Shown in pieces: positions 9,835 to 34,591 of a stretch of DNA of 64,000 nucleotides. Where the stretch lies: assembly GCA_038843015.1 (NCBI GenBank), contig JAWBSH010000002.1, positions 156,310 to 220,309 of the forward strand, written 5' to 3'. The notes below the pieces were generated by a model that was not told the DNA's origin, did not search any database, and saw only the letters and a program-made list of their open reading frames with translations. The DNA is from Zestosphaera sp. Lineage in GTDB: Archaea; Thermoproteota; Thermoprotei_A; Sulfolobales; NBVN01. Positions within the stretch are counted from its first letter, which is position 1, and the number at the start of each line of letters is the position of its first letter. A program made the position numbers and the translations under genes.

Positions 9835-9842
9835 TTTATTTA
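9835..9842 (+). promoter_or_regulatory. TATA box (TTTATTTA) for the inositol-phosphate synthase gene
   Basis: The box lies about 29 nt upstream of the ATG at 9871. This spacing is consistent with a leaderless or near-leaderless archaeal mRNA. Confidence 0.4.
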
Positions 9843-9870
9843 TGTCGATACAATATTTATTGGGATAAAT

Positions 9871-17159: not shown

Positions 17160-17654
17160 TTAAGGTAATGGCTTGTAGACTAGCTTCTTCAGAGCCCTCA
17201 CTCTCAATTCTTTAGCTACCTCAGCTGTAGTGCCCCACACTATAGCCCTAGTAGGGCACATAGCTACACATCCAGGCGTCAAACCCTCAGACCTTAACGG
17301 ATTGCATAAGTCACACTTAGTCGCAAATCCAGGCGGTATTATCTCGGGGATGCCGAAAGGACAGGCGGCTAAACACGCGGAACACCCTATACACTTTGAA
17401 ATATCCACTAATACAGCACCGTCCTCGTCTTTATGCATGGCTCCGGTGGGGCATGCCGTAATGCAGGGTGCCTTAGCACAGTGGAAGCACGATATGGGCT
17501 TGTTAAGTCCTCCCCCTATATCGTATAACTTTATGTAGCCTCTACCTTCATGTATGAACGAACACACTTCCTCACAAGTATAGCAACCTATACACACGTC
17601 GTAGTTTATTACTCGGCTCATGCCACCATACTTACTGAAAGTTTCTAAATCCAT
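17160..17654 (-). CDS. four-cluster [4Fe-4S] ferredoxin-like electron-transfer subunit (HycB / DMSO-reductase beta-like)
   Basis: Four Cys groups are present: CIGCYTCEEVC, CFHCAKAPCITACP, CIGCSACLAACP and CDLCNP...CVAMCP. The start abuts the stop of the GltD-like gene (17654 versus 17656). Confidence 0.75.
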   Translation of the reverse strand: MDLETFSKYGGMSRVINYDVCIGCYTCEEVCSFIHEGRGYIKLYDIGGGLNKPISCFHCAKAPCITACPTGAMHKDEDGAVLVDISKCIGCSACLAACPFGIPEIIPPGFATKCDLCNPLRSEGLTPGCVAMCPTRAIVWGTTAEVAKELRVRALKKLVYKPLP

Positions 17655-17655
17655 C

Positions 17656-18714
17656 TCATAACACCCTCTTAGCTCTTAAAAAATGATCTAAGTGTGTTGC
17701 TGCCTTTAAGCCACTCCCGATAGCTTTACCTACCATTGAAGGACCCGTTACTACGTCTCCCGCCGCAAAGACTTTCTCAACTCCTGTCTGCATTCTTTCG
17801 TTGACTATCACTGTTCTTCTCTTAGGGTCTACCTTAATACCATCACATTCTGTACCCAGTGGCGGAGTTGGTATCTCTCCTACAGCTGCTAAGACGGTGT
17901 CTGCCTCTATAACGTGTTCTGTGCCAGGCACGGGCATCGGCCTAGGTCTTCCAGTCTCGTCAGGCTCGCCTAACTTCATCTTAACAAACTCTACCCCAAC
18001 TACTCTATCACCAGATACAACGACTTTAGTAGGTTGAACAAGCTCCACCCACTTAACACCCTCAGAAGCTACTCTACGTATTTCGTATTCACCCGCCGGT
18101 GCTTCCTTGATAGTCCTTCTATAAGTTAGGTAGACTTCCTTAGCCCCCTTCATCAAGGCTACTTCAGCAGCGTCTATCGCGCTATATCCCCCGCCAATGA
18201 CGACCACTTTATTGCCTACAAGAGGCTTATGTGTTGAGTACCCTAACTCGTATGTCCACCAGCTATAAACGTATTCCAGAGCTGAGAAAACTCCTTTAGC
18301 GTTATCTCCAGGCACTCCTAACCTCCTCGAAGACCATATGCCTGTTGTCAACAACACGGCATCATACTCTTCCATGACTTTCTTTAAGTCAACCACGTTA
18401 TTGACGAATTCGTCTCCCTCATCGTGTCTAGGCTCGCCGCAGAAGACTTTAGTCCTATAAATAAACTTAACACCGAAATTCTTTTCAAGGTCTTCAGTCC
18501 CTTCCATAACGCTATCTCTGGGTATTCTGTAGGGGGGTATGCCGAACATCATTAAGCCTCCCGCAAGAGGTAATTTCTCGTAAACGTCTACTTCATATCC
18601 CTGACATACTAGGTAGCCTGTAGCTGCTAGTCCCGCTGGACCACCGCCTACAACAGCTACCTTACCCCTACCTCCGCCTCCTTGCCTTTTCTTGCACATG
18701 AAAGCAAACTTCAT
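17656..18714 (-). CDS. GltD/SudA-like NAD(P)H-dependent FAD oxidoreductase lacking the N-terminal Fe-S domain
   Basis: VAVVGGGPAGLAA (FAD), KVVVIGGGYSAIDAA (NAD(P)H) and VFAAGDVVTGPSMVGKAIGSG are present. At 352 aa the protein begins directly at the first dinucleotide fold. Confidence 0.75.
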   Translation of the reverse strand: MKFAFMCKKRQGGGGRGKVAVVGGGPAGLAATGYLVCQGYEVDVYEKLPLAGGLMMFGIPPYRIPRDSVMEGTEDLEKNFGVKFIYRTKVFCGEPRHDEGDEFVNNVVDLKKVMEEYDAVLLTTGIWSSRRLGVPGDNAKGVFSALEYVYSWWTYELGYSTHKPLVGNKVVVIGGGYSAIDAAEVALMKGAKEVYLTYRRTIKEAPAGEYEIRRVASEGVKWVELVQPTKVVVSGDRVVGVEFVKMKLGEPDETGRPRPMPVPGTEHVIEADTVLAAVGEIPTPPLGTECDGIKVDPKRRTVIVNERMQTGVEKVFAAGDVVTGPSMVGKAIGSGLKAATHLDHFLRAKRVL

Positions 18715-18733
18715 TTCATCATCACCTCATAAA

Positions 18734-18991
18734 CTACTCTGAAACTATAATTAACTTTATGTAGGAGTTCTCGACTCTTTTTCCAGAGAGCTTTTCAGTT
18801 ATCTCTATACTACTGATTCTAGCTTCTCCTCTCTTGAGTAGCTGGTCTAGTGCTTGAGCTGGTAAAATGTTCCTTAAGTAATCTAGTTCTACCACGTCTA
18901 CGTCCTCGCAAACAGAATACGGCGCTACGTGATGTCTCGGAATCACAGCACCTGAACCGTGTTCAACACAGTAGTAAATTCTAACCTTCAA
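18734..18991 (-). CDS. hypothetical 85-aa protein embedded in the hydrogenase operon
   Basis: The ORF overlaps the stop of the NuoB-like gene by 11 nt and ends 19 nt before the GltD-like gene. I recognise no motif in it. Confidence 0.4.
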   Translation of the reverse strand: MKVRIYYCVEHGSGAVIPRHHVAPYSVCEDVDVVELDYLRNILPAQALDQLLKRGEARISSIEITEKLSGKRVENSYIKLIIVSE

Positions 18992-19526
18992 TGGCTACCA
19001 CCCTCTTATGTTTTGATTTGGGTTGGAGAAGACCTAATAAAACCGCAACCCCGTATATGATTGCTTCAGGCCTTACAGGACATCCTGGGACGTAAACTAC
19101 TCTATCTACCTCTACACCAGCTTCCTTAAGAATTTCTTCGAGCTTGGTATACCCGCCTAAAGTTGCGTAAGTATTAAACCATATCCCGCCCCCAACACCA
19201 CAAGAACCTAGAGCCAACACAAGCCTGGGTCTCGGCATGGCCTTAATAGCTTTAATCACCTTGTTTATAGTCTTGATAGTTACAGGACCTGTCAACAATA
19301 TCAGGTCTGCGTGTCTGGGAGAACCCACCAACTTAATACCGAATCTCTCTACATCAAAGTAAGGTGTTAGCACGTCTAAGACTTCAATATCACACCCGTT
19401 GCAGCTGCCAGTATTTAGGTGAAAAACCCATATACTCCTCTTAAGCTTGCTGAAGGCTTCCTCAAGAACGCTAGGGCCAGACGAGGATGTCAAGTCAAGT
19501 CTTCCCTCTTCACTCACCGCTAACAC
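18981..19526 (-). CDS. group 4 [NiFe] hydrogenase small subunit (NuoB/HycG/MbhJ-like)
   Basis: The motifs NTGSCNGCDIEV, ALGSCGVGGGIW and YVPGCPVRPE provide the four Cys ligands of the proximal [4Fe-4S] cluster. Confidence 0.85.
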   Translation of the reverse strand: MLAVSEEGRLDLTSSSGPSVLEEAFSKLKRSIWVFHLNTGSCNGCDIEVLDVLTPYFDVERFGIKLVGSPRHADLILLTGPVTIKTINKVIKAIKAMPRPRLVLALGSCGVGGGIWFNTYATLGGYTKLEEILKEAGVEVDRVVYVPGCPVRPEAIIYGVAVLLGLLQPKSKHKRVVAIEG

Positions 19527-20028
19527 CCACTACCTTGCTCCCGATCTTACGAGCAGTTAGTTTCTTCCTACACTCGGGACACACGCTGAGGAGGTCTTCA
19601 GGAACTTTATTCTCTATTCTTTTCTCAACTTCCTTAACAAACTTTACCGTAGTAAAAGACTTGCCGCAAATCCTACACCTGACAGTATTATGGACTACCT
19701 CATCATAAAGATCTCCTAACTCCCACGTAGCCAGCTCAAATTCTCTAGAGATTGATATAGCTTTCTGAGGGCACACGTACGCACACATACCACAGAAGAT
19801 ACACTTGCCGACGAAATACTTGAGTGTTGCTTCATTACCTTCGTAACCCATGGTTAACGCTTTAGGAGGGCATATCTTAGTGCAGGCGCCGCACCCAACA
19901 CACTTAATCGGGTCTACCTCAATCTTCCCTCTAAATTCAGGCGTAACTAACGGTGACTCAAAAGGATATTTTCTTGTAGCAGTCCCTTCACGAGCAGAGA
20001 TTGAAAGCATCTTAAGGAACTTAACCAT
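19510..20028 (-). CDS. 2x[4Fe-4S] subunit (NuoI/HycF/MbhN-like) with an extra C-terminal CxxC...CxxC element
   Basis: CVGCGACTKICPP and CIFCGMCAYVCPQ are present. The tail carries RCRICGK...VCPECRKK, which looks like a zinc ribbon. Confidence 0.8.
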   Translation of the reverse strand: MVKFLKMLSISAREGTATRKYPFESPLVTPEFRGKIEVDPIKCVGCGACTKICPPKALTMGYEGNEATLKYFVGKCIFCGMCAYVCPQKAISISREFELATWELGDLYDEVVHNTVRCRICGKSFTTVKFVKEVEKRIENKVPEDLLSVCPECRKKLTARKIGSKVVGVSGE

Positions 20029-21724
20029 TCTTTCTCCCTCTTCTAGAAATAACTCCTAAAGGTAATGTCTTAACATTGCCAGATTTCAAGTTTATGATTA
20101 CTGCTCTGTCAGTACATGAGAAGCAAGGGTCTATGCTAGCTATAGTTAGTGGTGCGTCAGCTAGGTCAACTCCTTTAAGCATTATGGGTACTGCCTGGAG
20201 ATTCTGGTAGGTCGGGGCTCTAACTCTCCACCTGTATGGTCCGTAAAGGTCTGTTAGAACTACGTGTATTACCTCACCTCTAGGAGCTTCTACAGCGCCA
20301 ATACCTAGCCTCATTGGTTGAGGCTCCCACTTATCAGTTTTTATAGGTCCGCCCGGTAACATATCAATGAGTTGCTCAATAATACTTATACTCTCGAAAA
20401 CCTCATCTATCCTGACTAGAGTTCTAGCCAGGTTATCGCCTTCAGTGTAGACAGGCACTTTAAAGCTAACGTAGTGGTAAGCTGCGTACGTGTAGTCTTT
20501 CCTCACGTCTCTCGCTAACCCGGAACCTCGGACAGTAGGCCCTACTAAGGAGTAGGCCCTAGCTTCACCTCTAGGTAGTATGCCTGTTCCTGTGAGTCTT
20601 GCTCTAACCTGCGGCACGCTTGTCGCGACCTCTACGAGTTCTTTAAATTCTTTCTTAAGCAGGTTTAGTGTCTCTCTGATTTTAGGTATCTTATCCTTAT
20701 CAATGTCTTTCTTAACGCCCCCGACTAAGTCTATGCCGTAAGTTTTCCTGCTACCCGTCAGTAGCTCTGCTAACACCATGACTTTCTCTCTAATCCTCCA
20801 AGCATGCATGAATCCTGTGTCGTAGCCTAGCAGGTGAAGAGCTACGCCTAGCCATAGGAGATGACTATGTAGTCTCTCGACTTCAAGAACTATGGATCTT
20901 ATGAAGTGTGCTCTTTCAGGCACGTCTATCTCTAGCGCATCCTCTACTGCCTGGACATAGCTGGTTGAGTGAACAAAGCCGCAGATACCGCAAATACGTT
21001 CAGCCAAGAAAGGAACTTGGTCGTATTTCATGCTTTCTGCTAGTTTCTCTATACCTCTGTGAACCATGAAGCCAACATATCTTGCGTCAACTACTTTCTC
21101 TCCTCTAACGTATAGCTCGAAATACTCTGGCTCGTGAAGTGCTGGGTGGTAGGGGCCGACAGGTATCCTCACAACCTCTTCCACACCTAACTCAGAAACA
21201 CGAGTTACTGTCTGAGGCTGATACATCTTTTTTATCTCATCTACACTAATATCTTTCCTCAGAGGGTAAAGACCTTCTGGCCAGTCGTCAGGCAAAACTA
21301 ACCTCCTTAAGGGTCTGCCATTAAATTCTACTCCTACGAGGTCATGCGCTTCTAACTCGTACCAGTCGGAAGCTCTGAAGAGATCACTTATAGTGTCTAC
21401 CTTAACCCCGTCTATTACGGGTACTTCGAAAACAATATTTGTTCCTTCACTATCAATCCCGAAAACGTAGTAAAGTTTAGTAAGACCTTCCTTAAGTCTC
21501 TCGTCTGAGGCGGCCATAGTTCTAAAATACAAGTCATGTTCTTTATAGATACTCTCAAGAGCCGTACGTAAGCAATCAGCTTTAATCACTACCTTGATGG
21601 TTACACCTCTCCTACTTAAGTCTAGTAATGAGTCTCCGCAAACACTAAGTACTCTAGATAATATTGCGTGACTTCTAGGACCTCTAGAGAGGTCTTCAAT
21701 TAATTTACTGAAATCATGACTCAT
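20021..21724 (-). CDS. group 4 [NiFe] hydrogenase large subunit, fused NuoC-NuoD type (HycE-like)
   Basis: The N-terminal part is NuoC-like (SDWYELEAHDLVGVEFNGRP). Both NiFe-ligand pairs are present: ERICGICGFVHS and DPCFSCTDR. A 27-aa C-terminal extension follows the last motif. Confidence 0.85.
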   Translation of the reverse strand: MSHDFSKLIEDLSRGPRSHAILSRVLSVCGDSLLDLSRRGVTIKVVIKADCLRTALESIYKEHDLYFRTMAASDERLKEGLTKLYYVFGIDSEGTNIVFEVPVIDGVKVDTISDLFRASDWYELEAHDLVGVEFNGRPLRRLVLPDDWPEGLYPLRKDISVDEIKKMYQPQTVTRVSELGVEEVVRIPVGPYHPALHEPEYFELYVRGEKVVDARYVGFMVHRGIEKLAESMKYDQVPFLAERICGICGFVHSTSYVQAVEDALEIDVPERAHFIRSIVLEVERLHSHLLWLGVALHLLGYDTGFMHAWRIREKVMVLAELLTGSRKTYGIDLVGGVKKDIDKDKIPKIRETLNLLKKEFKELVEVATSVPQVRARLTGTGILPRGEARAYSLVGPTVRGSGLARDVRKDYTYAAYHYVSFKVPVYTEGDNLARTLVRIDEVFESISIIEQLIDMLPGGPIKTDKWEPQPMRLGIGAVEAPRGEVIHVVLTDLYGPYRWRVRAPTYQNLQAVPIMLKGVDLADAPLTIASIDPCFSCTDRAVIINLKSGNVKTLPLGVISRRGRKNG

Positions 21725-21760
21725 TATTCTATCATCCTCTTATTACTATGTTATTTACAC

Positions 21761-22666: not shown

Positions 22667-23025
22667 GCTAGGAACACCATAAGTAGCATTGCGAAAACTA
22701 CTAATAAGTTCATGTATAGTGAAGTGAAGGATAGGGCGTCTTCAATCGCTGAAGTTAAGTCTATCAGATCCTTAGCGAACATCTTATAATGTTTGTAAAG
22801 CAAGCCTTCACTAACGCTGAATACCTTGTATACGTAGCTAGCAGAATCGAGTAAAAGATGTGTGAATGATTTTTCCCCTCTTTCGAAATTCTGACCTACG
22901 TCGTAATAGAAACTCATCTTAACTGCTGAAGGGACTAGTCTCCTCAGGTATTTACGTAGTATATCGCTGAATCTACCTATGACTGACGCAGACTCAGAAC
23001 TCAAGGCAGTGCACCCCCTAACCAA
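22654..23025 (-). CDS. hypothetical 123-aa protein with one C-terminal TM helix, embedded in the hydrogenase operon
   Basis: The ORF overlaps both neighbours (by 25 nt and 13 nt). It has a hydrophilic body and a hydrophobic tail ([19 protein letters not shown]). Its position corresponds to MbhI, but I see no recognisable similarity. Confidence 0.4.
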
Positions 23026-24527
23026 GATTCCTCTCTAGCACCCCTTCTTACGTAGAAGTAGGTGTAATACACAAGTACTGACATCATCGCCGTAGCTAAA
23101 CCCAACGGGACTACGTAGAGTAAGTCTAGTGAAGCTAAGCCAGCGACTACTACAACAAAGTAAACAGGCAGTGTTAGTGCGATGTTAAGTATTGAGAGCC
23201 CTAATTCTGAAGATTCAGTACCGGTATTCAGTTTAAGTTCTTTAGGTTTACTGAAAGAGGTCGCTCCCCAGTAGACAGTTACGTATCTCAAGCCGTAAGC
23301 AACTGCTAGTGCAGCACCTAAAGCCGCTACTACTAAGAGTAGTACAGCCATAGTTACTGATACCTGATATATTGATACTAGCCCTGCGAGGAGTAGTATC
23401 TTACCTAAAAATCCTAGTGTTGGGGGCGTACCTATTAAAGAAAGAACAGAAAGAAGAGCTGTTATAGTAGGCTTAATAACTATCTTGGCTAAATATCCTA
23501 GTTTGTTTATGTCTCTAGTGTGTGTTAATATCTCGACAGTGCCTGAATTCATGAACAACGTAGCTTTGAAAATTCCGTGAGCTACTGAGTAAATTAGTGC
23601 TGCGATTAGGAGTAGTTCTATCTTGAAAGCTCCGTAGGAAGCTAGCGCTATCGTTATTAAGCTAGTATTCTCGATTGTGCTGTAAGCCAAGATTCTCTTT
23701 ATATCTGCTTGTATGAGAGCTTGCAGACCACCGTAGATGACAGTCAGTGACGCAAAAACCAGTAGCGCGTAGTACACGTACATAGACTCAATAGCGGGCA
23801 CTATTAAGTAGAATCCGTAAATACCCATCTTAACCATCACCCCAGACAAAATTGCTGAGGCCGGAGCCGGCGCTAGTGAGTGCGCGTCAGGCAACCAGAA
23901 GTGGAATGGCGCTACAGCAGCTTTTGCGAGCAGTCCTACCGCTATTATTAAGTGTAGTAGTGGGTTAACGCCTAATAGATGCGTGCTTAGCTCGCTGATA
24001 GGTAGCTGAAAAGCTCCTGCGAATCCTAGCTTCAAAGCCGTAAGCCCGAGTATAGTGAGGAGAGCTACGTCTGCTGGAACCATAGAAATGAGCAAATACC
24101 TAAGCCCGGCTACTAAAGTCCTCCTCTCCACCTCAAAAACTATCGTGAAGAAACCAACTATCTCAGCGAAAAGCCAGAACATCACGAAGCTCGTTAAATT
24201 CTCTGATATGAATACTAGGTAAACACTTAAAACGAATAAGTCTATCAGTAGCGTCAAGTTTCTTCCAGGATACTTGTGGTTTTCATAGTGTATCGTGTAC
24301 GGGGTGATGAATAAAGCTACTATCGAAGCTAATAAAGCAAACAAGCCTTTAACTAGACCGAACGGCTGACTAATGACTACTATAGAGTAAAGCAACATTA
24401 CTATGGGAGAGCTATACCTTATGATTAGTGATGTTCGCGAGTACTTAGCCTTAACCGCGTTACCTACGACGTAGAGTAAGAATGAGATAGAAGCGATGAT
24501 GTAAGGATACATCCACTTATCTATCAT
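23001..24527 (-). CDS. antiporter-like membrane subunit (NuoL/HycC/MbhH-like)
   Basis: The 508-aa polytopic protein has the motifs [27 protein letters not shown] and LAYSTIEN, typical of the NuoL/M/N-MrpA/D family. Confidence 0.8.
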
Positions 24528-24558
24528 TTTTACTACCTCACTAATGTTTTTGTTTCAC

Positions 24559-24596
24559 TATTTAAAAATGCATAAACATTTGCTCTCCTATATAAA
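24559..24596 (-). promoter_or_regulatory. candidate internal promoter (TTTATATA and TTTTTAAATA boxes) between the Mrp module and the hydrogenase module
   Basis: This 95-nt AT-rich stretch is the only sizeable gap in the cluster. On the minus strand it reads GTCTTTATATAGG...GCATTTTTAAATAG. The boxes sit 34 to 62 nt upstream of the ATG at 24527. Confidence 0.35.
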
Positions 24597-24622
24597 GACT
24601 TACCCAAATTATTTAAACTCAT

Positions 24623-26284
24623 TTAACCACCCCCAAGAGCTTTACTCAACTCACTTACTGAGTTAATATATTTACTTAAGCCATCAATACTTAATAGGCT
24701 TTCCGCGTGACTTATTAACTCGCTGATTATAGCTCCCTGCAAAATCATAACTCCTAAAATAACTAACGTAGCCGCTAAGACTAAGAGTATTAGGGTCGGG
24801 ATAATTAAGCGGTCCCGCTGCACCCTCTCTTCAGAGCTCCTGCCCACGACTAACGTATAAATGACTTTAAAGTAACCGAGAGCTGAGATTCCAGAGATTA
24901 GTACTATGGATAGGGCATGTAAGGGTAAGCCAGAGTTCATTAATGCTGTGAAAATCATGAACTTACTGAAGAATCCTGCTAGCGGTATGACGCCTAGTAA
25001 GCTTAGAAAACCTAATATTATGGAGGCAGTGAGTAGCGGGTACCTACTACCTAAGCCCTGCATTTCAGCCAGGCTTGTGGAGCCTGCTACTATCGAAAGT
25101 GTTCCTAAGCCTATAAATAGCGCGAATTCGCCAATAGCGTGAGTTATCATGTGAAGTAAGATACCACCTAACGCTTCTGCTGAAGCGCTCAAGGGCATTC
25201 TAGAAACTAACGCGCCAAAAGAAGTAAATATTATCCCGATATGACTTATTGTTGAGTAAGCAAGCAATCTCTTCACGTTCTTCTGCGGAAACATAAGTAG
25301 AGCTCCTAAGTAGCCTGTAATTAAGCCGAGAAAACTCAGTATCATGAGGATGAAATCTCTGAAAGCAATACCCCATAGAGGGAATGCTAGTACTGCGCCG
25401 TAGGCCGTAAACAACGTTATGAAAAGCCTAATAACGCCGTAAGTACCGACTTTATCGACTATCCCAGCAAATAAGGCTGAGGCAGGAGTTGGTGACTCTG
25501 CGTAAGCGCTAGGCATCCAGTAGTTGTTGGGGAATAAGCCAGCCTCAAAATTCAGTGCCCACAACATCAGAGCTACTGCTAAAGCAGAACTTATGAATAC
25601 GTTACCGTAACACCACTCACCAACACACTTACCAGACCATCTCTCTAAGTACTCAGAGAGTAACTGAGGTTCTTGGTGAGTCTTAACTACTAAGTCTGCA
25701 ATATTTACTGTCCCGAAAGACGCGTAGATAAAAATAACACCGAAAAAGAATAACATAGTAGCTAAAGCTCCTATAAAGCTGTAGGCCATAGAAGCTTCAA
25801 CAGCCCACTTCCTCCTCCTAAAGAATGCTACTAACGCGTAAGAAGAGATGCTGAGTACCTCAAGCATTACGAAGAAGTTGAAGAGGTCGCCTGTATAGAG
25901 ACAGCCGAGAACGCCGGCTAGCAGTATGAGAATTAATGTTGAGAGCCACTCATACCCAGACTCAATCTTACTAAAATACCAATACATGTAGAGTGACGAG
26001 AAGAAAAATAAAGTAGCTGCTAGGAAGCCCAAGACGCCATTAAGAAAATCAACTACATAAACGATGCCTAGGGGTGGTGGCCACCCACCAAAAGAGTATG
26101 TCAAGACATTGCCTCTAACTACTTCTACTAAGTTAACCAAGGTTAGAACCGCTACAAAAAATGTAGTTGCAGTAGTTATGGTAGCGTAAAGAATACGAGA
26201 CCTGAACTTAAGTGTCAGAACTGGCAACACGAAAGCAACTAAGACGGGCGCCACAGTGACTAAACCGACTGATGGTTCGTTCAT
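24623..26284 (-). CDS. mrpD: Mrp antiporter subunit D-like (second NuoL/M/N-type subunit)
   Basis: The 553-aa polytopic protein has WMPSAYAESPTPASALFAG and LAYSTISHIG motifs. Confidence 0.75.
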   Translation of the reverse strand: MNEPSVGLVTVAPVLVAFVLPVLTLKFRSRILYATITTATTFFVAVLTLVNLVEVVRGNVLTYSFGGWPPPLGIVYVVDFLNGVLGFLAATLFFFSSLYMYWYFSKIESGYEWLSTLILILLAGVLGCLYTGDLFNFFVMLEVLSISSYALVAFFRRRKWAVEASMAYSFIGALATMLFFFGVIFIYASFGTVNIADLVVKTHQEPQLLSEYLERWSGKCVGEWCYGNVFISSALAVALMLWALNFEAGLFPNNYWMPSAYAESPTPASALFAGIVDKVGTYGVIRLFITLFTAYGAVLAFPLWGIAFRDFILMILSFLGLITGYLGALLMFPQKNVKRLLAYSTISHIGIIFTSFGALVSRMPLSASAEALGGILLHMITHAIGEFALFIGLGTLSIVAGSTSLAEMQGLGSRYPLLTASIILGFLSLLGVIPLAGFFSKFMIFTALMNSGLPLHALSIVLISGISALGYFKVIYTLVVGRSSEERVQRDRLIIPTLILLVLAATLVILGVMILQGAIISELISHAESLLSIDGLSKYINSVSELSKALGGG

Positions 26285-26293
26285 TCAGCTCAC

Positions 26294-26800
26294 CTAATCA
26301 AAAACTTTTAAAGCGTACGTATCAAAAACCTCACTTACTTCTTTATAAGACTCTTCAGGCTTCGTTGTCTTTGCGTATATCCAGTGAACATAGATATTCC
26401 CTTTCTCTTTATTAAGGTCAACAACTACAGTGCCTGGAGTGTTAGTTATAGATAGAGAAACTAGAGTTATTCCGTAGTCGTTTCTAGTCTTTATAGGCAT
26501 CTTAACTATAGCAGGCCTTAAGTCTAGTTTAGGACTTAGGCTTAACTTAATCAAGAGTAAGTGAGCTTTGACCTCATCTATGAAGAAATATCTAAAAGCG
26601 AACCTGACTAAGTTAACAAACCTTCTTAAACTCAAACTCTTTCTCCAGTCTTCTATGAGTAAGTTTGAAGTAAGTACTCCTATAATGAGAGCTACTAAAA
26701 AACCTGTGAGGATGTCATAGAGTCTTAAAGTTCCTGTATATACTACGTAGATAATGAACGAAAGCAGTACTGGAACTATAGACTTATACAGCCTCCTCAT
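26294..26800 (-). CDS. mrpE: Mrp antiporter subunit E-like
   Basis: The size is 168 aa, with two N-terminal TM helices and a soluble C-terminal domain. Its position within the Mrp gene set supports the call. Confidence 0.6.
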   Translation of the reverse strand: MRRLYKSIVPVLLSFIIYVVYTGTLRLYDILTGFLVALIIGVLTSNLLIEDWRKSLSLRRFVNLVRFAFRYFFIDEVKAHLLLIKLSLSPKLDLRPAIVKMPIKTRNDYGITLVSLSITNTPGTVVVDLNKEKGNIYVHWIYAKTTKPEESYKEVSEVFDTYALKVFD

Positions 26801-27230
26801 GTATGTACACCCTCTTACTCCTGCCTATCTCGTCCACGTTCACAGTCTTGAAGTGGTAGCTTACATGAACTACTATAGTGGTTAAAAAAAGAGTCACTGC
26901 TAGACCTATGACTATCGCTGTTAGAACGAAGGCTTGTGGTAGTGGGTCAACAGATCTTTCTACGAATTCTCTGAGAGTTTCTGGAGTAGGGCTTAAGTCT
27001 GTTAAGACAGGTGGCTGCAGTAAGAGACCCGGCCTCCAAAGCTTATAACCAACTAAAATCGTAAACATGTTTACCGTGTCCTGAAATATTGTTAATGCTA
27101 TAAGTTTCTTCACTAAGTTTGCTTTAGCTACTACGCCATAAAGTGATATAGCTACGTTGAAGTAAAGAGATATTACTGTAAGCATGAACATAAACTTAAT
27201 CAACTCAATATCCAAGTTCTTCACCCTCAA
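26784..27230 (-). CDS. mrpC: Mrp antiporter subunit C-like (NuoK-like)
   Basis: The sequence LYGVVAKANLVKKLIALTIFQDTVNMF matches the MnhC/NuoK pattern. The protein has a longer C-terminal part than usual. Confidence 0.65.
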   Translation of the reverse strand: MRVKNLDIELIKFMFMLTVISLYFNVAISLYGVVAKANLVKKLIALTIFQDTVNMFTILVGYKLWRPGLLLQPPVLTDLSPTPETLREFVERSVDPLPQAFVLTAIVIGLAVTLFLTTIVVHVSYHFKTVNVDEIGRSKRVYIHEEAV

Positions 27231-28020
27231 GCTCTCTGCGCAGTGTTTCGTCTTTACTCAGTAATATCGTGAAGACTAGAGTAAACCCGCCAGCAACAGC
27301 TAAGAACTCAAAAAGATTGAAGAAGAAGAGTGAGCCTCCTAAAGGAACGTCTAGCAAGTGTGTCGGGTAGGAGAGAGTTGATATAGTCTTAGCTTGGTTT
27401 TGGAAGATGTAGCTTTCTACGCCAATTAAGAAACCCAAGACTAAGAGAGCTACAGAAGTAAAGCCCAGTAGAGCTAGGGAGATGTTCCGTATAGAGAGTA
27501 GCTTATTGTAAGTTATTTTCCTGTCAATGAAGAACTGCTTACCAAAAACTACTAGTAGGAGCAAGGGAGCTACTGAAGCTATCGCCCCACCTTGGAAACC
27601 CCCACCCGGTGTTAAGTGCCCGTGAAGAGCTGTTGAAGCGGCTACAGTCAGTATTGCTAAAGTAACTATAGCGGTAATTCTCTTGACAACTAGGCTTAAC
27701 CCAGCACTACTAACAAGCTCAGGCACTTTAGAGATACTCCGGAATAGAGTTAGGGCTGCAAGTATCGCGCCGTAAAAGACCACGGTCTCAAATAGAGTGT
27801 CAAGACCTCTATAGTCCCAGACTATCGCCGTAACTGCCTCGGGTGACGCAGCCCACAACCAGGAAATTTCCTGGTTGTAGGTCAGATTCAAGTAATTCTT
27901 CGCTATAAATCTAATGTCTTGAGGCGGTAGGTCTCCTAACCCGCCAGAGTAAGTAAGGTATGTGAGAGCCAGTATGATCACGACGAGTAGAGACACGAAG
28001 ATAAGATCTCTCAGCATCAT
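27205..28020 (-). CDS. mrpB: Mrp antiporter subunit B-like (MbhE/F-like)
   Basis: VTAIVWDYRGLDTLFETVVF is the MnhB-domain signature. Confidence 0.7.
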   Translation of the reverse strand: MMLRDLIFVSLLVVIILALTYLTYSGGLGDLPPQDIRFIAKNYLNLTYNQEISWLWAASPEAVTAIVWDYRGLDTLFETVVFYGAILAALTLFRSISKVPELVSSAGLSLVVKRITAIVTLAILTVAASTALHGHLTPGGGFQGGAIASVAPLLLLVVFGKQFFIDRKITYNKLLSIRNISLALLGFTSVALLVLGFLIGVESYIFQNQAKTISTLSYPTHLLDVPLGGSLFFFNLFEFLAVAGGFTLVFTILLSKDETLRRELEGEELGY

Positions 28021-28283
28021 GTCATCACCTCATACCTACCTACCTTCTTAACGAGAAGTATCACTACTAAGGGGTAGATACCTACAGCTACTGCCACATA
28101 TACTAAGACTATGTCGGGAGCTAGTAACAAGAAGTAAATTAGTGCGTAAGCCACACTCTGAACAGATGAGAAAACCACGGCGTACATTAAGTCTTTAGTT
28201 CTAATAGTGAGGAAAGTAAACAAGACCGAAGAAAGAGCTGAGATACCCATAATCAGGAAGATTAAGTCGATGTAATCCATCAC
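28017..28283 (-). CDS. small Mrp/Mbh membrane subunit (MbhD / DUF4040-like)
   Basis: The 88-aa protein has three TM helices and an LLLAPDIVLVYVAVAVG motif, which resembles the C-terminal domain of MrpA. Confidence 0.55.
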   Translation of the reverse strand: MMDYIDLIFLIMGISALSSVLFTFLTIRTKDLMYAVVFSSVQSVAYALIYFLLLAPDIVLVYVAVAVGIYPLVVILLVKKVGRYEVMT

Positions 28284-28663
28284 ACCTCACCCTTACTCCT
28301 ATCCTCCTCTAGTTGATCCACGATGACGGGTTTCACGGGTGCAGCTTTAGCCCTATGTGTAGCTCTAGCTAACGCGTGACTGCCTGCACCAGCAAGTAGC
28401 AACTCAATAAAAGCAACAACTAGTGAGGCACCGCACAAGAACCACCTATAAGGTCCTAAGAAATCAGCTCCTGCAGCCACTAAAGCAACGCCTATTATGG
28501 GTAGGAAGGCACCTCCTATACTACCTACAGTAGCTGCGTGTAATCTTGTGTAGAAGTTGGGGAATCTTATCATAGCTATTGAAGCAACTAAGTCGCAGAA
28601 GACTCCTACAGTTATCAAAGCCTGACCAGCTATGACTAAGAACCACTCAATTAGCGTAGTCAT
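28280..28663 (-). CDS. mrpG: Mrp antiporter subunit G-like
   Basis: IAMIRFPNFYTRLHAATVGS is the MnhG signature. Confidence 0.75.
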   Translation of the reverse strand: MTTLIEWFLVIAGQALITVGVFCDLVASIAMIRFPNFYTRLHAATVGSIGGAFLPIIGVALVAAGADFLGPYRWFLCGASLVVAFIELLLAGAGSHALARATHRAKAAPVKPVIVDQLEEDRSKGEV

Positions 28664-28665
28664 TG

Positions 28666-28953
28666 CTAATCACCTAACTCTCTAGCTTCAAGATACTTAG
28701 CTACGTAAATATCTAAAGAAAATATCCATAAAATCAAAACAACTCCGCAAACTATGAGTAAAGGAGATCTTAAAATGATCGTTAAGACAGTCATGAAAGC
28801 CGCTAAATCGTAGCCTAACGCGTCAACGGCTAAGACTCTATCAGGTAGTGTAGGCCCCTTAATTATTCTGACCATATATAGAAGAAACGCTGTGAAGTAA
28901 GGAATCATGAGAGCGGTGAGATAGGTAATCACCCACCATTCTAAATCAGGCAT
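28666..28953 (-). CDS. mrpF: Mrp antiporter subunit F-like
   Basis: IKGPTLPDRVLAVDAL is the MrpF/PhaF signature. This is the first gene of the cluster. Confidence 0.75.
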   Translation of the reverse strand: MPDLEWWVITYLTALMIPYFTAFLLYMVRIIKGPTLPDRVLAVDALGYDLAAFMTVLTIILRSPLLIVCGVVLILWIFSLDIYVAKYLEARELGD

Positions 28954-34582: not shown

Positions 34583-34591
34583 TTAACCACC

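What the first reader, a model, noticed from the sequence alone, without database searches (positions are those of the whole stretch)
17160..28953. Mrp antiporter plus FHL-type [NiFe] hydrogenase supercluster that ends in a GltD-like NAD(P)H flavoprotein instead of a formate or CO dehydrogenase
What the sequence shows:
- Seventeen co-directional minus-strand genes, most with overlapping or abutting stop and start codons.
- Gene order is mrpF-G-(MbhD-like)-B-C-E-D, a 95-nt AT-rich gap, then a NuoL-like gene, a 123-aa unknown, a NuoH-like gene, the fused NuoC-NuoD large subunit, a HycF-like gene, a NuoB-like gene, an 85-aa unknown, a GltD-like flavoprotein and a HycB-like four-cluster ferredoxin.
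- The large subunit keeps both NiFe-ligand Cys pairs (RICGICG and DPCFSCTDR) and has a cleavable-looking 27-aa C-terminal tail. It therefore reads as a true hydrogenase, not an Mbx/Mbs-type sulfane reductase.
- The fused large subunit together with the HycF-, HycG-, HycD-, HycC- and HycB-like set is the formate hydrogenlyase architecture.

Established knowledge: in E. coli FHL, HycB wires FdhH to the hydrogenase. In Thermococcus, Fdh-Mfh-Mnh and Codh-Mch-Mnh clusters attach a formate or CO dehydrogenase to the same chassis plus an Mrp module.

Inference: here the equivalent position holds a 352-aa GltD/SudA-like FAD/NAD(P)H protein. It begins right at its first GxGxxG and so lacks the usual N-terminal Fe-S domain. 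The adjacent HycB-like protein could supply that domain. This suggests an ion-translocating NAD(P)H:H+ (or H2:NAD(P)+) oxidoreductase.

Limits: no hyp or endopeptidase maturation genes occur in the window. I cannot tell from the sequence whether this exact module combination has been characterised.
Basis: partly seen in the sequence, partly recalled or inferred. Interest (0 to 1): 0.7.

Follow-up and report, generated by a model that had tools for sequence, protein, structure and literature searches.

The report
NADPH-linked membrane hydrogenase gene cluster
This is a 16-gene cluster of a hot-spring archaeon (Zestosphaera) for a membrane-bound hydrogen-making enzyme that appears to be wired to NADPH instead of formate or CO; the design is real and widespread but was already noted in genome papers from 2009-2010 and has never been tested biochemically.

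Summary
There are 16 co-directional minus-strand genes at 17160-28953, not 17.

**What the genes are**
- Seven form an Mrp module.
- Seven form a formate-hydrogenlyase-type [NiFe] hydrogenase. Its large subunit is 43% identical to E. coli HycE, and both NiFe Cys pairs and a 27-aa tail are intact.
- Two form an electron-input pair: a 352-aa FAD/NADP(H) flavoprotein and a 16-Cys HycB-like polyferredoxin. The flavoprotein is an NfnB/SudA/GltD homologue without the N-terminal Fe-S domain.

**Linkage in relatives**
- Among 86 related loci, the polyferredoxin follows the flavoprotein in 79.
- The hydrogenase is co-directional in the same locus in 52. In 19 loci the pair sits between the Mrp and hydrogenase modules.
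- Relatives whose large subunit is ≤50% identical carry FdhA or CooS in the equivalent slot.
- A flavoprotein of this size with 18-kDa Fe-S subunits is the NADP+ module of purified Thermococcus onnurineus Fdh3.

**Best reading**
An ion-coupled H2:NADP+ / NADPH:H+ oxidoreductase. This is an inference; the enzyme has not been tested.

**Novelty**
The design is not new. The same architecture was described for Staphylothermus marinus (2009) and for Thermosphaera and Desulfurococcus (2010). This is a new member of a known but uncharacterised kind, of modest interest.

The parts
28666..28953 (-). MrpF-like subunit (95 aa), first gene of the cluster
   Evidence: Pfam PF04066 MrpF_PhaF, 9e-12. TATA-like CTTAAATA lies about 20 nt upstream of the ATG.
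28280..28663 (-). MrpG-like subunit (127 aa)
   Evidence: Pfam PF03334 PhaG_MnhG_YufB, 1.7e-15.
28017..28283 (-). MbhD-like small membrane subunit (88 aa)
   Evidence: Pfam PF13244 MbhD, 4.2e-11.
27205..28020 (-). MrpB/MnhB-like subunit (271 aa)
   Evidence: Pfam PF04039 MnhB, 2.4e-18.
26784..27230 (-). MrpC / NuoK-like subunit (148 aa by longest ORF; gene callers give 135-143 aa)
   Evidence: Pfam PF00420 Oxidored_q2, 1.9e-19.
26294..26800 (-). MrpE-like subunit (168 aa)
   Evidence: Pfam PF01899 MNHE, 3.4e-34.
24623..26284 (-). MrpD-like antiporter subunit (553 aa)
   Evidence: Pfam PF00361, 1.4e-43. Best NCBIfam matches are 'monovalent cation/H+ antiporter subunit D'.
24528..24622 (-). 95-nt AT-rich intergenic gap between the Mrp and hydrogenase modules; candidate internal promoter
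   Evidence: 25% G+C. Contains TTTATATA and TTTTTAAAT boxes and a GTGAGGT ribosome-binding-like site before the ATG. The boxes are conserved in Zestosphaera-lineage relatives. Promoter function is an inference.
23001..24527 (-). HycC/HyfB-like antiporter-type membrane subunit (508 aa), short form without the ND3-like C-terminal extension
   Evidence: Pfam PF00361, 3.1e-44. Best NCBIfam match is 'hydrogenase 4 subunit B'. 29% identical to E. coli HycC. Length is 500-528 aa in this clade against 608-702 aa in Fdh/CODH-linked relatives.
22654..23025 (-). Small membrane protein (123 aa ORF, called as 116 aa) with one C-terminal transmembrane helix; probably the split-off C-terminal (ND3-like) part of HycC
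   Evidence: No Pfam or NCBIfam hit. A 93-145 aa ORF fills the HycC-NuoH gap in nearly all clade members, whereas long HycC abuts NuoH elsewhere. Profile comparison is inconclusive: HMM E 0.48, hhalign probability 15%.
21761..22666 (-). HycD/NuoH-like membrane anchor (301 aa)
   Evidence: Pfam PF00146, 2.4e-32. 33% identical to E. coli HycD.
20021..21724 (-). [NiFe] hydrogenase large subunit, fused NuoC-NuoD (HycE type, 567 aa)
   Evidence: Pfam PF00329 + PF00346 + PF00374. PDB best match is E. coli HycE 7z0s_E, 1.2e-125. 43% identical over 535 aa. C245/C248 and C534/C537 are invariant. 27-aa tail after DPCFSCTDR.
19510..20028 (-). HycF-like 2x[4Fe-4S] subunit with an extra Cys quartet (172 aa)
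   Evidence: NCBIfam best match is 'formate hydrogenlyase complex iron-sulfur subunit', 7.5e-41. 36% identical to HycF. C118, C121, C150 and C153 correspond to the E. coli C117/120/155/158 metal site.
18981..19526 (-). HycG/NuoB-like small subunit (181 aa), four Cys for the proximal cluster
   Evidence: Pfam PF01058, 1.5e-24. 45% identical to E. coli HycG. Cys at 42, 45, 109 and 149.
18734..18991 (-). Conserved 85-aa soluble protein of unknown function that always follows the HycG-like gene
   Evidence: No family hit. A counterpart follows NuoB in 55 clade loci in all gene orders. AF2 pLDDT 88. No PDB fold match, best E 1.5. No hhalign match to HycH, HycI, HypA or HypC.
17656..18714 (-). FAD/NADP(H) flavoprotein (352 aa), an NfnB/SudA/GltD homologue lacking the N-terminal 2x[4Fe-4S] domain
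   Evidence: Pfam PF07992, 3.6e-35. NCBIfam NF009409, 468 bits against a cut-off of 343, full length. PDB sequence and fold best matches are NfnI-L, NfnABC, StnA and NfnB. Y198-R199-R200 are invariant.
17160..17654 (-). HycB-like 4x[4Fe-4S] polyferredoxin (164 aa), last gene of the cluster
   Evidence: Pfam PF13247 Fer4_11, 3.3e-20. 16 Cys in the HycB pattern; 33% identical to E. coli HycB. Starts 1 nt after the flavoprotein stop. Followed by a convergent gene.

Best explanation
[quoted passage not shown] The literature files its orthologues in HydDB group 4b. It is joined to an Mrp cation/proton antiporter module.

Its electron-input/output module is not a formate or CO dehydrogenase. It is a two-protein NADP(H) module: a truncated NfnB/SudA-type FAD flavoprotein plus a HycB-type polyferredoxin with four [4Fe-4S] clusters.

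**Proposed electron path**
NADP(H) <-> FAD <-> four HycB-like clusters <-> two HycF-like clusters <-> the HycG-like proximal cluster <-> the Ni-Fe site in the HycE-like subunit.

**Proposed coupling**
Redox turnover at the HycE/HycD interface is coupled to ion movement through the HycC-like and MrpD-like subunits. The Mrp module exchanges H+ for Na+, as proposed for Thermococcus Fdh-Mfh-Mnh.

**Net reaction and direction**
The net reaction is NADPH + H+ <-> NADP+ + H2, coupled to the ion gradient.
- In the H2-uptake direction it is exergonic under standard conditions. It could make NADPH while exporting ions.
- In the H2-evolving direction it could dispose of NADPH from peptide fermentation. 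That requires either very low H2 or spending the ion gradient.

**Shown versus inferred**
- Shown: gene content, motifs, homologies, conserved linkage and module swapping.
- Inferred: physical attachment of the pair, NADPH rather than NADH, ion coupling and direction.
For: **Subunit identities and cofactor ligands**.

**Clade-wide conservation of the NiFe ligands**: 52 of 52 complete large subunits.

**Linkage, selecting loci by the flavoprotein**
- HycB-like is directly downstream in 79 of 86 loci.
- An FHL-type large subunit is co-directional in the same locus in 52. About 12 more loci are cut by a contig end inside the hydrogenase or Mrp genes.
- The pair is found at the 3' end (16 loci), at the 5' end (17 loci), or between the Mrp and hydrogenase modules (19 loci). 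It has therefore moved with the hydrogenase through several rearrangements.

**Reverse test, selecting loci by the large subunit**
- At ≥57% identity most loci have the pair.
- At ≤50% identity none has the pair in the slot next to the hydrogenase genes. The equivalent slot holds FdhA+HycB (Thermococcus L142, Anaerolineae L127) or CooF-CooS-CooC (L115, L125, L114). L114 does carry a pair, 1.5 kb downstream beside an AFOR gene.
- HycB-like proteins next to the flavoprotein are 47-83% identical to the window's, against 32-44% for those next to FdhA or CooS.

**Natural fusions**
Flavoprotein-polyferredoxin fusions exist: P0110 of 537 aa and L081 of 532 aa.

**Biochemical precedent (PMC8965080)**
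- Purified T. onnurineus Fdh3 contains FdhA, a 39-kDa NfnI-like flavoprotein with Arg204-Arg205, and 18-kDa Fe-S subunits.
- It reduces NADP+ with formate.
- Adding ferredoxin gave no stimulation.

**E. coli structure (PMC9474812)**
HycB is the four-cluster wire from the donor enzyme to HycF, HycG and HycE.

**Physiology**
- D. amylolyticus has the same cluster type without fdh and makes no H2 from formate (PMC7143981).
- In P. furiosus, NADPH from peptide fermentation cannot be oxidised by the ferredoxin-specific MBH (PMC4731540). An NADPH-linked membrane hydrogenase would fill that gap.
- Published genome papers reached the same proposal.
Against: - No activity, purification or expression data exist for any member, as far as I could find.
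- The pair also occurs without a hydrogenase: next to AFOR tungsten oxidoreductases (L017, L081, L088, L092, L114), next to aldo/keto reductases (L022, L031), and in other contexts I did not resolve. It is a portable module and could in principle act on its own.
- Four loci of the clade lack an adjacent flavoprotein: L098, L101, L105 and L106.
- In one locus (L019) the pair is convergent to the Mrp-hydrogenase genes rather than co-transcribed with them.
- NADPH to H2 is endergonic under standard conditions (E0' about -320 against -414 mV, textbook values). An H2-evolving, ion-exporting mode is therefore unlikely unless H2 is kept very low.
- Orthology of the window flavoprotein to T. onnurineus TON_0542 was not tested directly. 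I could not obtain that sequence.
- The closest structural relatives of the flavoprotein are all bifurcating Nfn-type subunits. A more complex electron flow is not excluded.
Confidence: 0.65

Rival explanations
1. The flavoprotein and polyferredoxin form an independent soluble NADPH:ferredoxin (or NADPH:acceptor) oxidoreductase. It merely sits near the hydrogenase. The hydrogenase itself takes electrons from ferredoxin, and the pair balances the NADPH and ferredoxin pools.
For: - The pair occurs alone or fused in loci with no hydrogenase.
- In L019 it is convergent to the hydrogenase genes.
- T. onnurineus Fdh3 shows that the module can serve different catalytic partners.
- The nearest solved relatives are ferredoxin-linked Nfn enzymes.
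Against: - In FHL-type complexes HycB is the subunit that docks on HycF and HycE. In the window and in nearly all loci of the clade that I examined, the only HycB-like gene found lies next to the flavoprotein.
- The pair sits between the Mrp and Hyc modules in 19 loci.
- Its presence tracks one clade of large subunits, while sister clades carry FdhA or CooS in its place.
- The N-terminal two-cluster domain is absent. From my own knowledge of the Nfn structures, that is the domain that leads to ferredoxin.
Confidence: 0.15
2. The complex is a flavin-based electron-confurcating or bifurcating membrane hydrogenase. The NfnB-type FAD would combine NADPH with a second, low-potential donor such as ferredoxin to drive H2 formation. 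In reverse it would split electrons from H2 between NADP+ and ferredoxin.
For: - The five best fold matches are the NADPH-binding flavin subunits of bifurcating enzymes: NfnI, NfnABC, Stn and NfnAB.
- NADPH alone is a thermodynamically poor donor for H2.
- A 2026 survey proposes bifurcation for bacterial group 4b clusters that carry NADPH-binding SHI-type subunits (PMC13582414).
Against: - Nfn bifurcation needs two exit paths from the flavin. By my own knowledge of the Nfn structures these are the N-terminal [4Fe-4S] pair and the NfnA [2Fe-2S]/FAD.
- The N-terminal domain is missing. No NfnA/SudB-like gene appeared among the Pfam families of the cluster or its flanks.
- Only one polyferredoxin is present.
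- The homologous Fdh3 module showed no stimulation by ferredoxin.
Confidence: 0.08
3. The flavoprotein is an NAD(P)H-dependent sulfur or polysulfide reductase, and the membrane complex supplies or consumes NAD(P)H in sulfur respiration. This is the proposal made for S. marinus Smar_1055.
For: - Proposed in PMC2678158.
- The homologue SudA was first described as sulfide dehydrogenase.
- S. marinus is an obligate sulfur reducer.
- Two cysteines, C7 and C37, are invariant in the family.
Against: - The large subunit keeps all NiFe ligands across the clade. The complex is therefore a hydrogenase, not an Mbs-type sulfane reductase.
- The cluster is common in non-sulfur-dependent fermenters such as Thermosphaera, which sulfur inhibits.
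- There is no CxxC or CoA-disulfide-type redox-active motif.
- SudAB is now regarded as an Nfn-type ferredoxin:NADP oxidoreductase.
Confidence: 0.06
4. [quoted passage not shown]
For: - Database names include 'glutamate synthase (NADPH/NADH) small chain'.
- The adjacent-gene argument suggests this gene was counted as GOGAT in the Z. tamdykulense reconstruction.
Against: - There is no GltB-type large subunit in the cluster or its flanks.
- The N-terminal Fe-S domain of GltD is absent.
- Linkage to HycB-like and hydrogenase genes is constant.
- The protein scores above the cut-off for the separate family NF009409, but well below the cut-offs of the gltA, GOGAT_sm_gam and gltD_gamma_fam models.
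Confidence: 0.02

Closest known systems
'Dehydrogenase-linked MBX/MBH-type' clusters of Desulfurococcaceae: S. marinus Smar_1055-1071, T. aggregans Tagg_0050-0059, D. kamchatkensis, D. amylolyticus Desfe_1134-1141
   Same: - Same gene set: a truncated SudA-like flavoprotein plus an FdhB/HycB-like polyferredoxin, together with HycC, HycD, HycE, HycF and HycG-like genes.
- S. marinus also has the Mrp module.
- The same NADPH-dehydrogenase hypothesis has been published.
- My synteny survey places the window in this clade: large subunits 55-67% identical, flavoproteins 52-64%.
   Different: - Gene order. The window has Mrp first and the pair last. S. marinus has the pair first and Mrp last. Thermosphaera and Desulfurococcus have no Mrp and two HycC-like genes.
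- None of these has been characterised biochemically.
Thermococcus onnurineus Fdh2-Mfh2-Mnh2 and Codh-Mch-Mnh3 (HydDB group 4b respiratory hydrogenases)
   Same: - Three-module design: donor module, FHL-type hydrogenase, Mrp-type antiporter.
- The large subunit is about 46-50% identical to Thermococcus loci L111, L142 and L154.
- The donor module consists of a catalytic protein plus a HycB/CooF-type polyferredoxin.
   Different: - The donor is NADP(H)/FAD instead of formate/Mo-W-pterin or CO/Ni-Fe-S.
- HycC is short, with a separate small ORF, instead of a long HycC.
- The driving force is much smaller or reversed.
E. coli formate hydrogenlyase (FdhF-HycBCDEFG, PDB 7Z0S)
   Same: - All six Hyc subunits have homologues: HycE 43%, HycG 45%, HycF 36%, HycD 33%, HycB 33%, HycC 29%.
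- HycB's 16 Cys, HycF's Cys quartet and a cleavable-type C-terminal tail on the large subunit are all present.
   Different: - No FdhF.
- An Mrp module is added.
- No hycA, hycH or hycI and no hyp genes are linked.
T. onnurineus Fdh3 (NADP+-dependent formate dehydrogenase; Fdh3A/B/G1/G2)
   Same: - The same kind of NADP(H) module: a flavoprotein of about 39 kDa modelled on NfnI, with an Arg-Arg 2'-phosphate site, plus polyferredoxins of about 18 kDa.
- The window protein has R199-R200 and a 164-aa partner.
   Different: - The partner is a soluble formate dehydrogenase, not a membrane hydrogenase.
- Direct orthology to TON_0542 was not tested.
NfnAB / SudAB / NfnABC / StnABC and GltD
   Same: The FAD and NADPH domains are homologous. 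TM-score is 0.80-0.85 and identity 31-38% for the Nfn and Stn subunits, and TM-score 0.76-0.83 with 28-32% identity for GltD.
   Different: - Lacks the N-terminal 2x[4Fe-4S] domain.
- Has no NfnA/SudB or GltB partner.
- It is therefore neither an Nfn nor a glutamate synthase.
AorABC tungsten aldehyde oxidoreductase of Aromatoleum aromaticum
   Same: - Analogous wiring: catalytic subunit, 4x[4Fe-4S] polyferredoxin, FAD subunit, NAD+.
- Archaeal paralogues of the window pair sit next to AFOR genes.
   Different: Homology between AorC and the window flavoprotein was not tested. AorC did not appear among the 60 PDB sequence matches listed, of 64 found.

Membership tests
Group 4 membrane-bound [NiFe] hydrogenase, FHL (Hyc/Hyf) type | Large subunit with both CxxC Ni-Fe ligand motifs | tested here: met
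   RICGICG at 243-249 and DPCFSCTDR at 532-540. Both are invariant in an 18-sequence alignment and present in 52 of 52 complete clade members.
Group 4 membrane-bound [NiFe] hydrogenase, FHL (Hyc/Hyf) type | Fused NuoC-NuoD large subunit, closer to HycE than to MbhL or MbsL | tested here: met
   Pfam 30kDa + 49kDa domains in one protein. HycE 1.2e-125, MbhL 2.6e-74, MbsL 8e-49.
Group 4 membrane-bound [NiFe] hydrogenase, FHL (Hyc/Hyf) type | HycG, HycF, HycD, HycC and HycB homologues present | tested here: met
   blastp against E. coli Hyc proteins gives 29-45% identity, with the cluster-ligand Cys patterns conserved. NCBIfam best hits agree.
Group 4 membrane-bound [NiFe] hydrogenase, FHL (Hyc/Hyf) type | C-terminal extension removed by a HycI-type endopeptidase; Hyp maturation machinery | tested here: inconclusive
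   A 27-aa tail follows the conserved Arg, as in HycE with 32 aa. No hycI or hyp gene is in the 64-kb window. In D. amylolyticus these genes are unlinked. The rest of this genome is not available.
Group 4 membrane-bound [NiFe] hydrogenase, FHL (Hyc/Hyf) type | H2 evolution or uptake activity | not testable with these tools
   Needs enzyme assays.
HydDB subgroup 4b (Mrp-linked, formate/CO-respiring) | Classifier or phylogenetic placement of the large subunit | not testable with these tools
   HydDB is not available here. The literature calls the antiporter-linked clusters of Z. tikiterensis and Z. tamdykulense group 4b. I take these to be the orthologous clusters L021 and L012, whose large subunits are 74% and 91% identical to the window's.
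HydDB subgroup 4b (Mrp-linked, formate/CO-respiring) | Adjacent Mrp antiporter genes | tested here: met
   MrpF, G, B, C, E, D and an MbhD-like gene lie directly upstream, co-directional.
Formate hydrogenlyase / CO-dependent hydrogenase in the strict sense | Formate dehydrogenase (molybdopterin) or CooS catalytic subunit in the cluster | tested here: not met
   No Molybdopterin or Prismane family protein is in the cluster or its flanks. Relatives L142 and L127 have FdhA, and L115, L114 and L125 have CooS.
Nfn / SudAB ferredoxin:NADP oxidoreductase | FAD and NADPH domains of the large subunit | tested here: met
   PDB sequence E-values of 1e-58 to 1e-62. Foldseek TM-score 0.80-0.85.
Nfn / SudAB ferredoxin:NADP oxidoreductase | N-terminal domain with two [4Fe-4S] clusters | tested here: not met
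   The alignment starts at residue 136 of T. maritima NfnB and 155 of P. furiosus NfnI-L. The protein has only 4 Cys. The maximal ORF is 352 aa. The family is 342-376 aa long.
Nfn / SudAB ferredoxin:NADP oxidoreductase | Small subunit NfnA/SudB ([2Fe-2S], FAD) | tested here: not met
   No such gene is in the cluster or flanks.
Glutamate synthase small subunit (GltD) | Pairing with a GltB large subunit, and the N-terminal Fe-S domain | tested here: not met
   No GltB is nearby. The N-terminal domain is absent. Scores are below the cut-offs of the gltA, GOGAT_sm_gam and gltD_gamma_fam models.
NCBIfam NF009409 (PRK12770, 'putative glutamate synthase subunit beta', ~360 aa) | Full-length score above the curated cut-off | tested here: met
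   468.1 bits against a cut-off of 343. Residues 1-349 align to profile positions 4-353 of 360.
Fdh3B/Fdh3G-type NADP(H) electron module (T. onnurineus) | Truncated NfnI-like flavoprotein of about 39 kDa with an Arg-Arg 2'-phosphate site, plus an adjacent polyferredoxin of about 18 kDa | tested here: met
   352 aa. Y198-R199-R200 are invariant. The 164-aa 16-Cys partner starts 1 nt downstream.
Fdh3B/Fdh3G-type NADP(H) electron module (T. onnurineus) | Direct sequence orthology to TON_0542, and NADP+ specificity | not tested
   The TON_0542 sequence could not be obtained with the tools. Specificity needs assays.

The most novel reading that the evidence does not exclude
The NfnB-type flavin makes this a flavin-based electron-confurcating or bifurcating, ion-translocating membrane [NiFe] hydrogenase. 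It would couple NADPH and a low-potential donor to H2, or split H2 electrons between NADP+ and ferredoxin. The conserved 85-aa protein or the invariant Cys7/Cys37 would help provide a second electron path. That would combine bifurcation and chemiosmotic coupling in one complex.
Probability: 0.07. Interest if true: 0.85.

Novelty: new member of a known kind. Interest (0 to 1): 0.3.

Why it matters
**The open question**
Heterotrophic hyperthermophiles that ferment peptides make NADPH, and the ferredoxin-specific MBH cannot oxidise it. How sulfur-independent Desulfurococcaceae dispose of it, or how they make NADPH from H2, is unresolved.

**What a positive result would mean**
- A membrane-bound, possibly ion-coupled H2:NADP+ oxidoreductase would be a third input type, after formate and CO, for the modular Mrp-hydrogenase chassis from which complex I is thought to derive.
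- In outline it would resemble a proto-complex I with a nicotinamide-nucleotide input module.

**What this study adds**
- The design is not restricted to three cultured species. It is frequent in Desulfurococcales MAGs, and the survey also picked it up in a Pyrodictiaceae MAG and one labelled Methanobacteriota.
- It occurs in at least four gene orders.
- It tracks one clade of large subunits.
- Cultured carriers exist for a direct test.

**A practical consequence**
The flavoprotein gene is easily mis-scored as glutamate synthase in metabolic reconstructions.

Tried and rejected
- **The 85-aa protein as a HycH-like assembly factor.** HycH follows hycG in E. coli, which prompted the idea. blastp and hhalign against E. 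coli HycH, HycI, HypA, HypC and HycA gave nothing: probability ≤7%. A confident AF2 model has no PDB fold match. Rejected; function unknown.
- **The 123-aa ORF as the split-off ND3-like C-terminus of HycC.** The length and position pattern is strong. The HMM (E 0.48) and hhalign (probability 15%) comparisons are not significant. Kept only as a positional inference.
- **hyp and hycI genes.** None found in the window.
- **tRNA and Rfam scans.** Nothing found.
- **Schut et al. 2013 (FEMS Microbiol Rev 37:182) and Yu et al. 2018.** Neither is held. My recollection that the 2013 abstract mentions modules oxidising 'formate, CO or NAD(P)H' is from memory only.
- **TON_0542 and AorC.** I could not obtain either sequence for a direct comparison.
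- **Glutamate synthase and Nfn membership.** Both rejected because defining features are missing (see membership tests).
- **Mbx/Mbs-type sulfane reductase.** Rejected because all four NiFe cysteines are kept.

Full report
**1. The observation**

The only other ORF of that size, 17230-17538 on the plus strand, lies antisense inside the last gene.

Pfam assigns the genes as follows:

| Module | Genes, in order |
|---|---|
| Mrp | MrpF, MrpG, MbhD-like, MnhB, MrpC (Oxidored_q2), MrpE, MrpD-like antiporter subunit |
| Gap | 95 nt |
| Hydrogenase and input pair | HycC-like antiporter subunit, 123-aa ORF (no family), NuoH/HycD-like, fused NuoC+NuoD/NiFeSe large subunit, two-cluster ferredoxin, NuoB/HycG-like, 85-aa ORF (no family), Pyr_redox_2 flavoprotein, Fer4_11 polyferredoxin |

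- The gap is 25% G+C against 43% for the cluster.
- The other junctions overlap or lie 1-36 nt apart.
- The flanking genes are unrelated or on the other strand: saccharopine-dehydrogenase-like and adenylosuccinate lyase upstream, and a convergent inositol-phosphatase-like gene downstream.

**2. The organism**

An identical flavoprotein is found on at least 23 contigs of Zestosphaera sp. MAGs with the same neighbours. The closest named relatives are Zestosphaera and 'Candidatus Zestomicrobium tamdykulense', in the Desulfurococcaceae.

**3. The hydrogenase**

The large subunit's best solved relative is E. coli HycE (1.2e-125). P. furiosus MbhL (2.6e-74) and the sulfane reductase subunit MbsL (8e-49) follow well behind.

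Against the E. coli hyc operon:

| Window protein | E. coli counterpart | Identity |
|---|---|---|
| Large subunit | HycE | 43% over 535 residues |
| NuoB-like | HycG | 45% |
| Two-cluster ferredoxin | HycF | 36% |
| NuoH-like | HycD | 33% |
| Polyferredoxin | HycB | 33% |
| Antiporter-like | HycC | 29% |

- The HycF-like protein keeps the extra Cys quartet (C118, C121, C150, C153). In the E. coli structure that quartet binds a metal ion next to HycB and FdhF.
- The HycB-like protein has the same 16-Cys, four-cluster pattern.
- Both Ni-Fe ligand pairs are present (C245/C248 and C534/C537).
- Twenty-seven residues follow DPCFSCTDR, compared with 32 in HycE.
- All 52 complete flavoprotein-linked large subunits in related loci keep both motifs and a tail of 8-29 residues.

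This is a genuine FHL-type hydrogenase under selection, not an Mbx/Mbs-type enzyme. The literature calls the antiporter-linked clusters of Z. tikiterensis and Z. tamdykulense HydDB group 4b. I take those to be the orthologues of this one, but I could not run the classifier.

**4. The flavoprotein**

- It aligns with residues 136-460 of 468 of T. maritima NfnB and 155-471 of 474 of P. furiosus NfnI-L. It therefore has the FAD and NADPH domains but not the N-terminal two-cluster domain.
- It has only four cysteines. The ORF cannot be extended.
- This short form is a family of its own. The top 120 homologues are nearly all 342-376 aa.
- The protein passes the curated NCBIfam model NF009409 over its full length, with 468 bits against a cut-off of 343.
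- An AlphaFold model (pLDDT 91) matches NfnI-L, NfnABC, StnA and NfnB best (TM-score 0.80-0.85), followed by GltD and DPD.
- Tyr198-Arg199-Arg200 are invariant. In the purified T. onnurineus Fdh3 complex, a 39-kDa NfnI-like flavoprotein (TON_0542) has Arg204-Arg205, assigned to the 2'-phosphate of NADP(H). Together with 18-kDa Fe-S subunits it gives the enzyme a strong preference for NADP+ (PMC8965080). That is a biochemical precedent for this kind of two-protein NADP(H) module, although I could not compare the sequences directly.

**5. Linkage: loci selected by the flavoprotein**

I collected 86 loci by similarity to the flavoprotein. Eighty-one came from two scans of one genome per species, and five from contig look-ups of two homologues. 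I mapped all 16 window proteins onto them.

- The polyferredoxin gene is immediately downstream in 79 of 86 loci.
- An FHL-type large subunit is co-directional in the same locus in 52. About a dozen more are cut by a contig end inside the HycC, NuoH or Mrp genes.

The gene order varies:

| Arrangement | Loci | Where |
|---|---|---|
| Pair at the 3' end, after the HycG-like gene; Mrp visible upstream in 14 | 16 | Window, Zestosphaera, some Ignisphaera |
| Pair between the Mrp and hydrogenase modules | 19 | Many Desulfurococcales MAGs |
| Pair at the 5' end, no Mrp seen | 15 | Thermosphaera/Desulfurococcus type |
| Pair at the 5' end, Mrp after the hydrogenase | 2 | S. marinus type |
| Pair convergent to the Mrp-hydrogenase genes | 1 | L019 |

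Staying together through these rearrangements is good evidence for a functional unit.

**6. Linkage: loci selected by the large subunit**

In loci selected by the large subunit:

- Among the 13 new loci at ≥57% identity, eight have the pair.
- One of them, L104, has the flavoprotein gene cut by the contig end. L099 starts at the large subunit and is uninformative.
- The four exceptions are L098, L101, L105 and L106.
- At ≤50% identity none has the pair in the slot next to the hydrogenase genes.

L114 does carry a pair, 1.5 kb downstream beside an AFOR gene. Where the equivalent slot in those distant relatives could be read, it holds one of two alternatives:

- FdhA plus HycB (Thermococcus L142, Anaerolineae L127).
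- CooF-CooS-CooC (L115, L125, Methanodesulfokora L114).

The HycB-like proteins also split. Those next to the flavoprotein are 47-83% identical to the window's, against 32-44% for those next to FdhA or CooS.

**7. The pair is portable**

- Fused versions of 532-537 aa exist.
- Separate pairs also occur without a hydrogenase. They recur next to AFOR-family tungsten oxidoreductases with a radical-SAM/SPASM gene (L017, L081, L088, L092, L114).
- This resembles the wiring of bacterial AorABC: W-enzyme, four-cluster subunit, FAD subunit, NAD+.
- The E. coli AegA and YgfT profiles match the polyferredoxin with their N-terminal part and the flavoprotein with their C-terminal part.

This supports the pair as a general NAD(P)(H)/Fe-S adaptor. 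It also keeps alive the rival that it can work on its own.

**8. Mechanism**

The best-supported reading is NADP(H) <-> FAD <-> four HycB-like clusters <-> two HycF-like clusters <-> the HycG-like cluster <-> Ni-Fe. Ion movement would go through the HycD/HycC-like and Mrp subunits, by analogy with E. coli FHL and Thermococcus Fdh2-Mfh2-Mnh2.

- With textbook potentials (NADP+/NADPH about -320 mV, H+/H2 -414 mV at pH 7), H2 oxidation with NADP+ is exergonic by about 18 kJ/mol. That is comparable to what formate-driven Thermococcus lives on, so NADPH production with ion export is plausible.
- NADPH-driven H2 evolution needs very low H2 or input from the ion gradient.
- The physiological need is real. 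In P. furiosus, NADPH from peptide fermentation cannot be coupled to H2 by the ferredoxin-specific MBH.
- D. amylolyticus carries the Mrp-less version without any fdh gene and makes no H2 from formate.

Everything beyond gene content, motifs, homology and linkage is inference.

**9. The two unknown ORFs**

*The 85-aa protein*
- It has counterparts directly after the HycG-like gene in 55 clade loci, whatever the position of the flavoprotein.
- Its conserved pattern is Cys, about ten residues, Arg-His, about seven residues, Cys.
- It has a confident model (pLDDT 88) but no fold match in the PDB. It bears no relation to HycH, HycI, HypA or HypC.

*The 123-aa ORF*
- It has one C-terminal transmembrane helix and fills a gap that exists only in this clade.
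- Here HycC is 500-528 aa and is followed by a small ORF. In Fdh- and CODH-linked relatives HycC is 608-702 aa and abuts NuoH.
- In E. coli the extra C-terminal part of HycC is ND3-like.
- The ORF is therefore probably that part, split off. Profile comparisons are not significant.

**10. Transcription**

- The 95-nt gap carries TTTATATA and TTTTTAAAT boxes and a GTGAGGT site before the ATG.
- These are conserved in relatives of the Zestosphaera lineage.
- An internal promoter for the hydrogenase and flavoprotein genes is possible. This is an inference, because the tools do not model archaeal promoters.

**11. What is already known**

- Anderson et al. 2009 (PMC2678158) noted that S. marinus Smar_1055 is a SudA homologue 120 residues shorter, without SudB. 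[quoted passage not shown] They suggested a sulfur-related role.
- Spring et al. 2010 (PMC3035292) drew the clusters of T. aggregans, D. kamchatkensis and S. marinus. They stated that a sudA homologue replaces fdhA, proposed an NADPH-dehydrogenase-linked complex, and pointed out that only S. marinus has the antiporter genes.
- From memory only, the 2013 review by Schut et al. also lists NAD(P)H among the donors of Mrp-Mbh-type clusters. That paper is not held.
- Later papers on Zestosphaera relatives mention the antiporter-linked group 4b cluster without the flavoprotein.
- In the Z. tamdykulense paper the gene called glutamate synthase (QN229_01995) is next to the homologue of the 85-aa protein (QN229_02000). 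It is therefore most likely this flavoprotein.
- I found no biochemical work on any member.

**12. Verdict**

- The finding is a new member, with a different gene order, of a kind described from genomes more than a decade ago and still uncharacterised.
- The survey here adds breadth, the clade-specific module swap, the link to the characterised Fdh3 module, and two conserved accessory ORFs.
- Interest is modest (0.3).
- The most novel reading not excluded is a bifurcating or confurcating membrane hydrogenase. I put it at about 7%.

Noticed in passing
window 18734-18991 (-); counterparts in 55 related loci (e.g. L037, L042, L049, L083): A conserved soluble protein of about 85 aa always follows the HycG/NuoB-like gene in this hydrogenase clade. 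It has the conserved pattern Cys...Arg-His...Cys. It has no family assignment and a confident AlphaFold model with no PDB fold match. It could be an unrecognised subunit or a maturation factor.
   Followed up: yes
window 22654-23025 (-) and 23001-24527 (-); loci L001-L107 compared with L108-L142: In the flavoprotein-linked clade HycC is short (500-528 aa) and is followed by a small one-helix ORF. In Fdh- and CODH-linked relatives HycC is 608-702 aa and abuts NuoH. This looks like a gene split of the ND3-like C-terminal extension, but profile comparisons are not significant.
   Followed up: yes
window 17656-18714 (-), residues Cys7 and Cys37: Two cysteines are invariant in the truncated flavoprotein family. 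At Cys37 the two NfnB-type relatives whose alignments were printed have Lys and Thr instead. They could form a disulfide or contact the polyferredoxin. Not resolved.
   Followed up: partly
L017 8615-10228, L081 10001-11599 (fused); L088, L092, L114: Paralogous flavoprotein-polyferredoxin pairs, sometimes fused into one protein of 532-537 aa, lie next to AFOR-family tungsten oxidoreductase and radical-SAM/SPASM genes. They occur in an Ignisphaera MAG, Methanodesulfokora, a Thermoproteota MAG and two unassigned contigs. They may be archaeal NAD(P)-linked AOR complexes analogous to bacterial AorABC.
   Followed up: partly
L012 (Ca. Zestomicrobium tamdykulense), gene next to QN229_02000: The published metabolic reconstruction of this MAG lists QN229_01995 as glutamate synthase (GOGAT). 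Its neighbour QN229_02000 is the homologue of the 85-aa protein. The 'GOGAT' gene is therefore most likely the hydrogenase-linked flavoprotein, which would be a mis-assignment.
   Followed up: partly
L105 4031-6183 and L106: Orphan pairs of a large subunit (57% identical, both NiFe motifs intact in L105) and a HycF-like gene occur with no NuoB- or NuoH-like gene nearby. They are in genomes that also carry a complete flavoprotein-linked cluster.
   Followed up: partly
window 24528-24622: The AT-rich gap between the Mrp and hydrogenase modules carries TATA-like boxes that are conserved in relatives of the Zestosphaera lineage. This suggests an internal promoter.
   Followed up: partly
window 33374-35329 (-), 53652-55422 (-): Two Fe-S cluster assembly loci lie in the same 64 kb as this Fe-S-rich complex: SufBD/SufC, and NifU with a cysteine desulfurase.
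   Followed up: no
window 9820-11016 (+), 16293-17129 (+), 13552-16227 (-), 45990-48089 (-): Inositol-1-phosphate synthase and an inositol-monophosphatase/FBPase-like gene are present, a possible route to the compatible solute di-myo-inositol phosphate. A P-type cation ATPase directly flanks the cluster, and a membrane H+-pyrophosphatase lies about 17 kb away.
   Followed up: no
window 17230-17538 (+): A 102-aa ORF lies antisense inside the hycB-like gene.
   Followed up: partly
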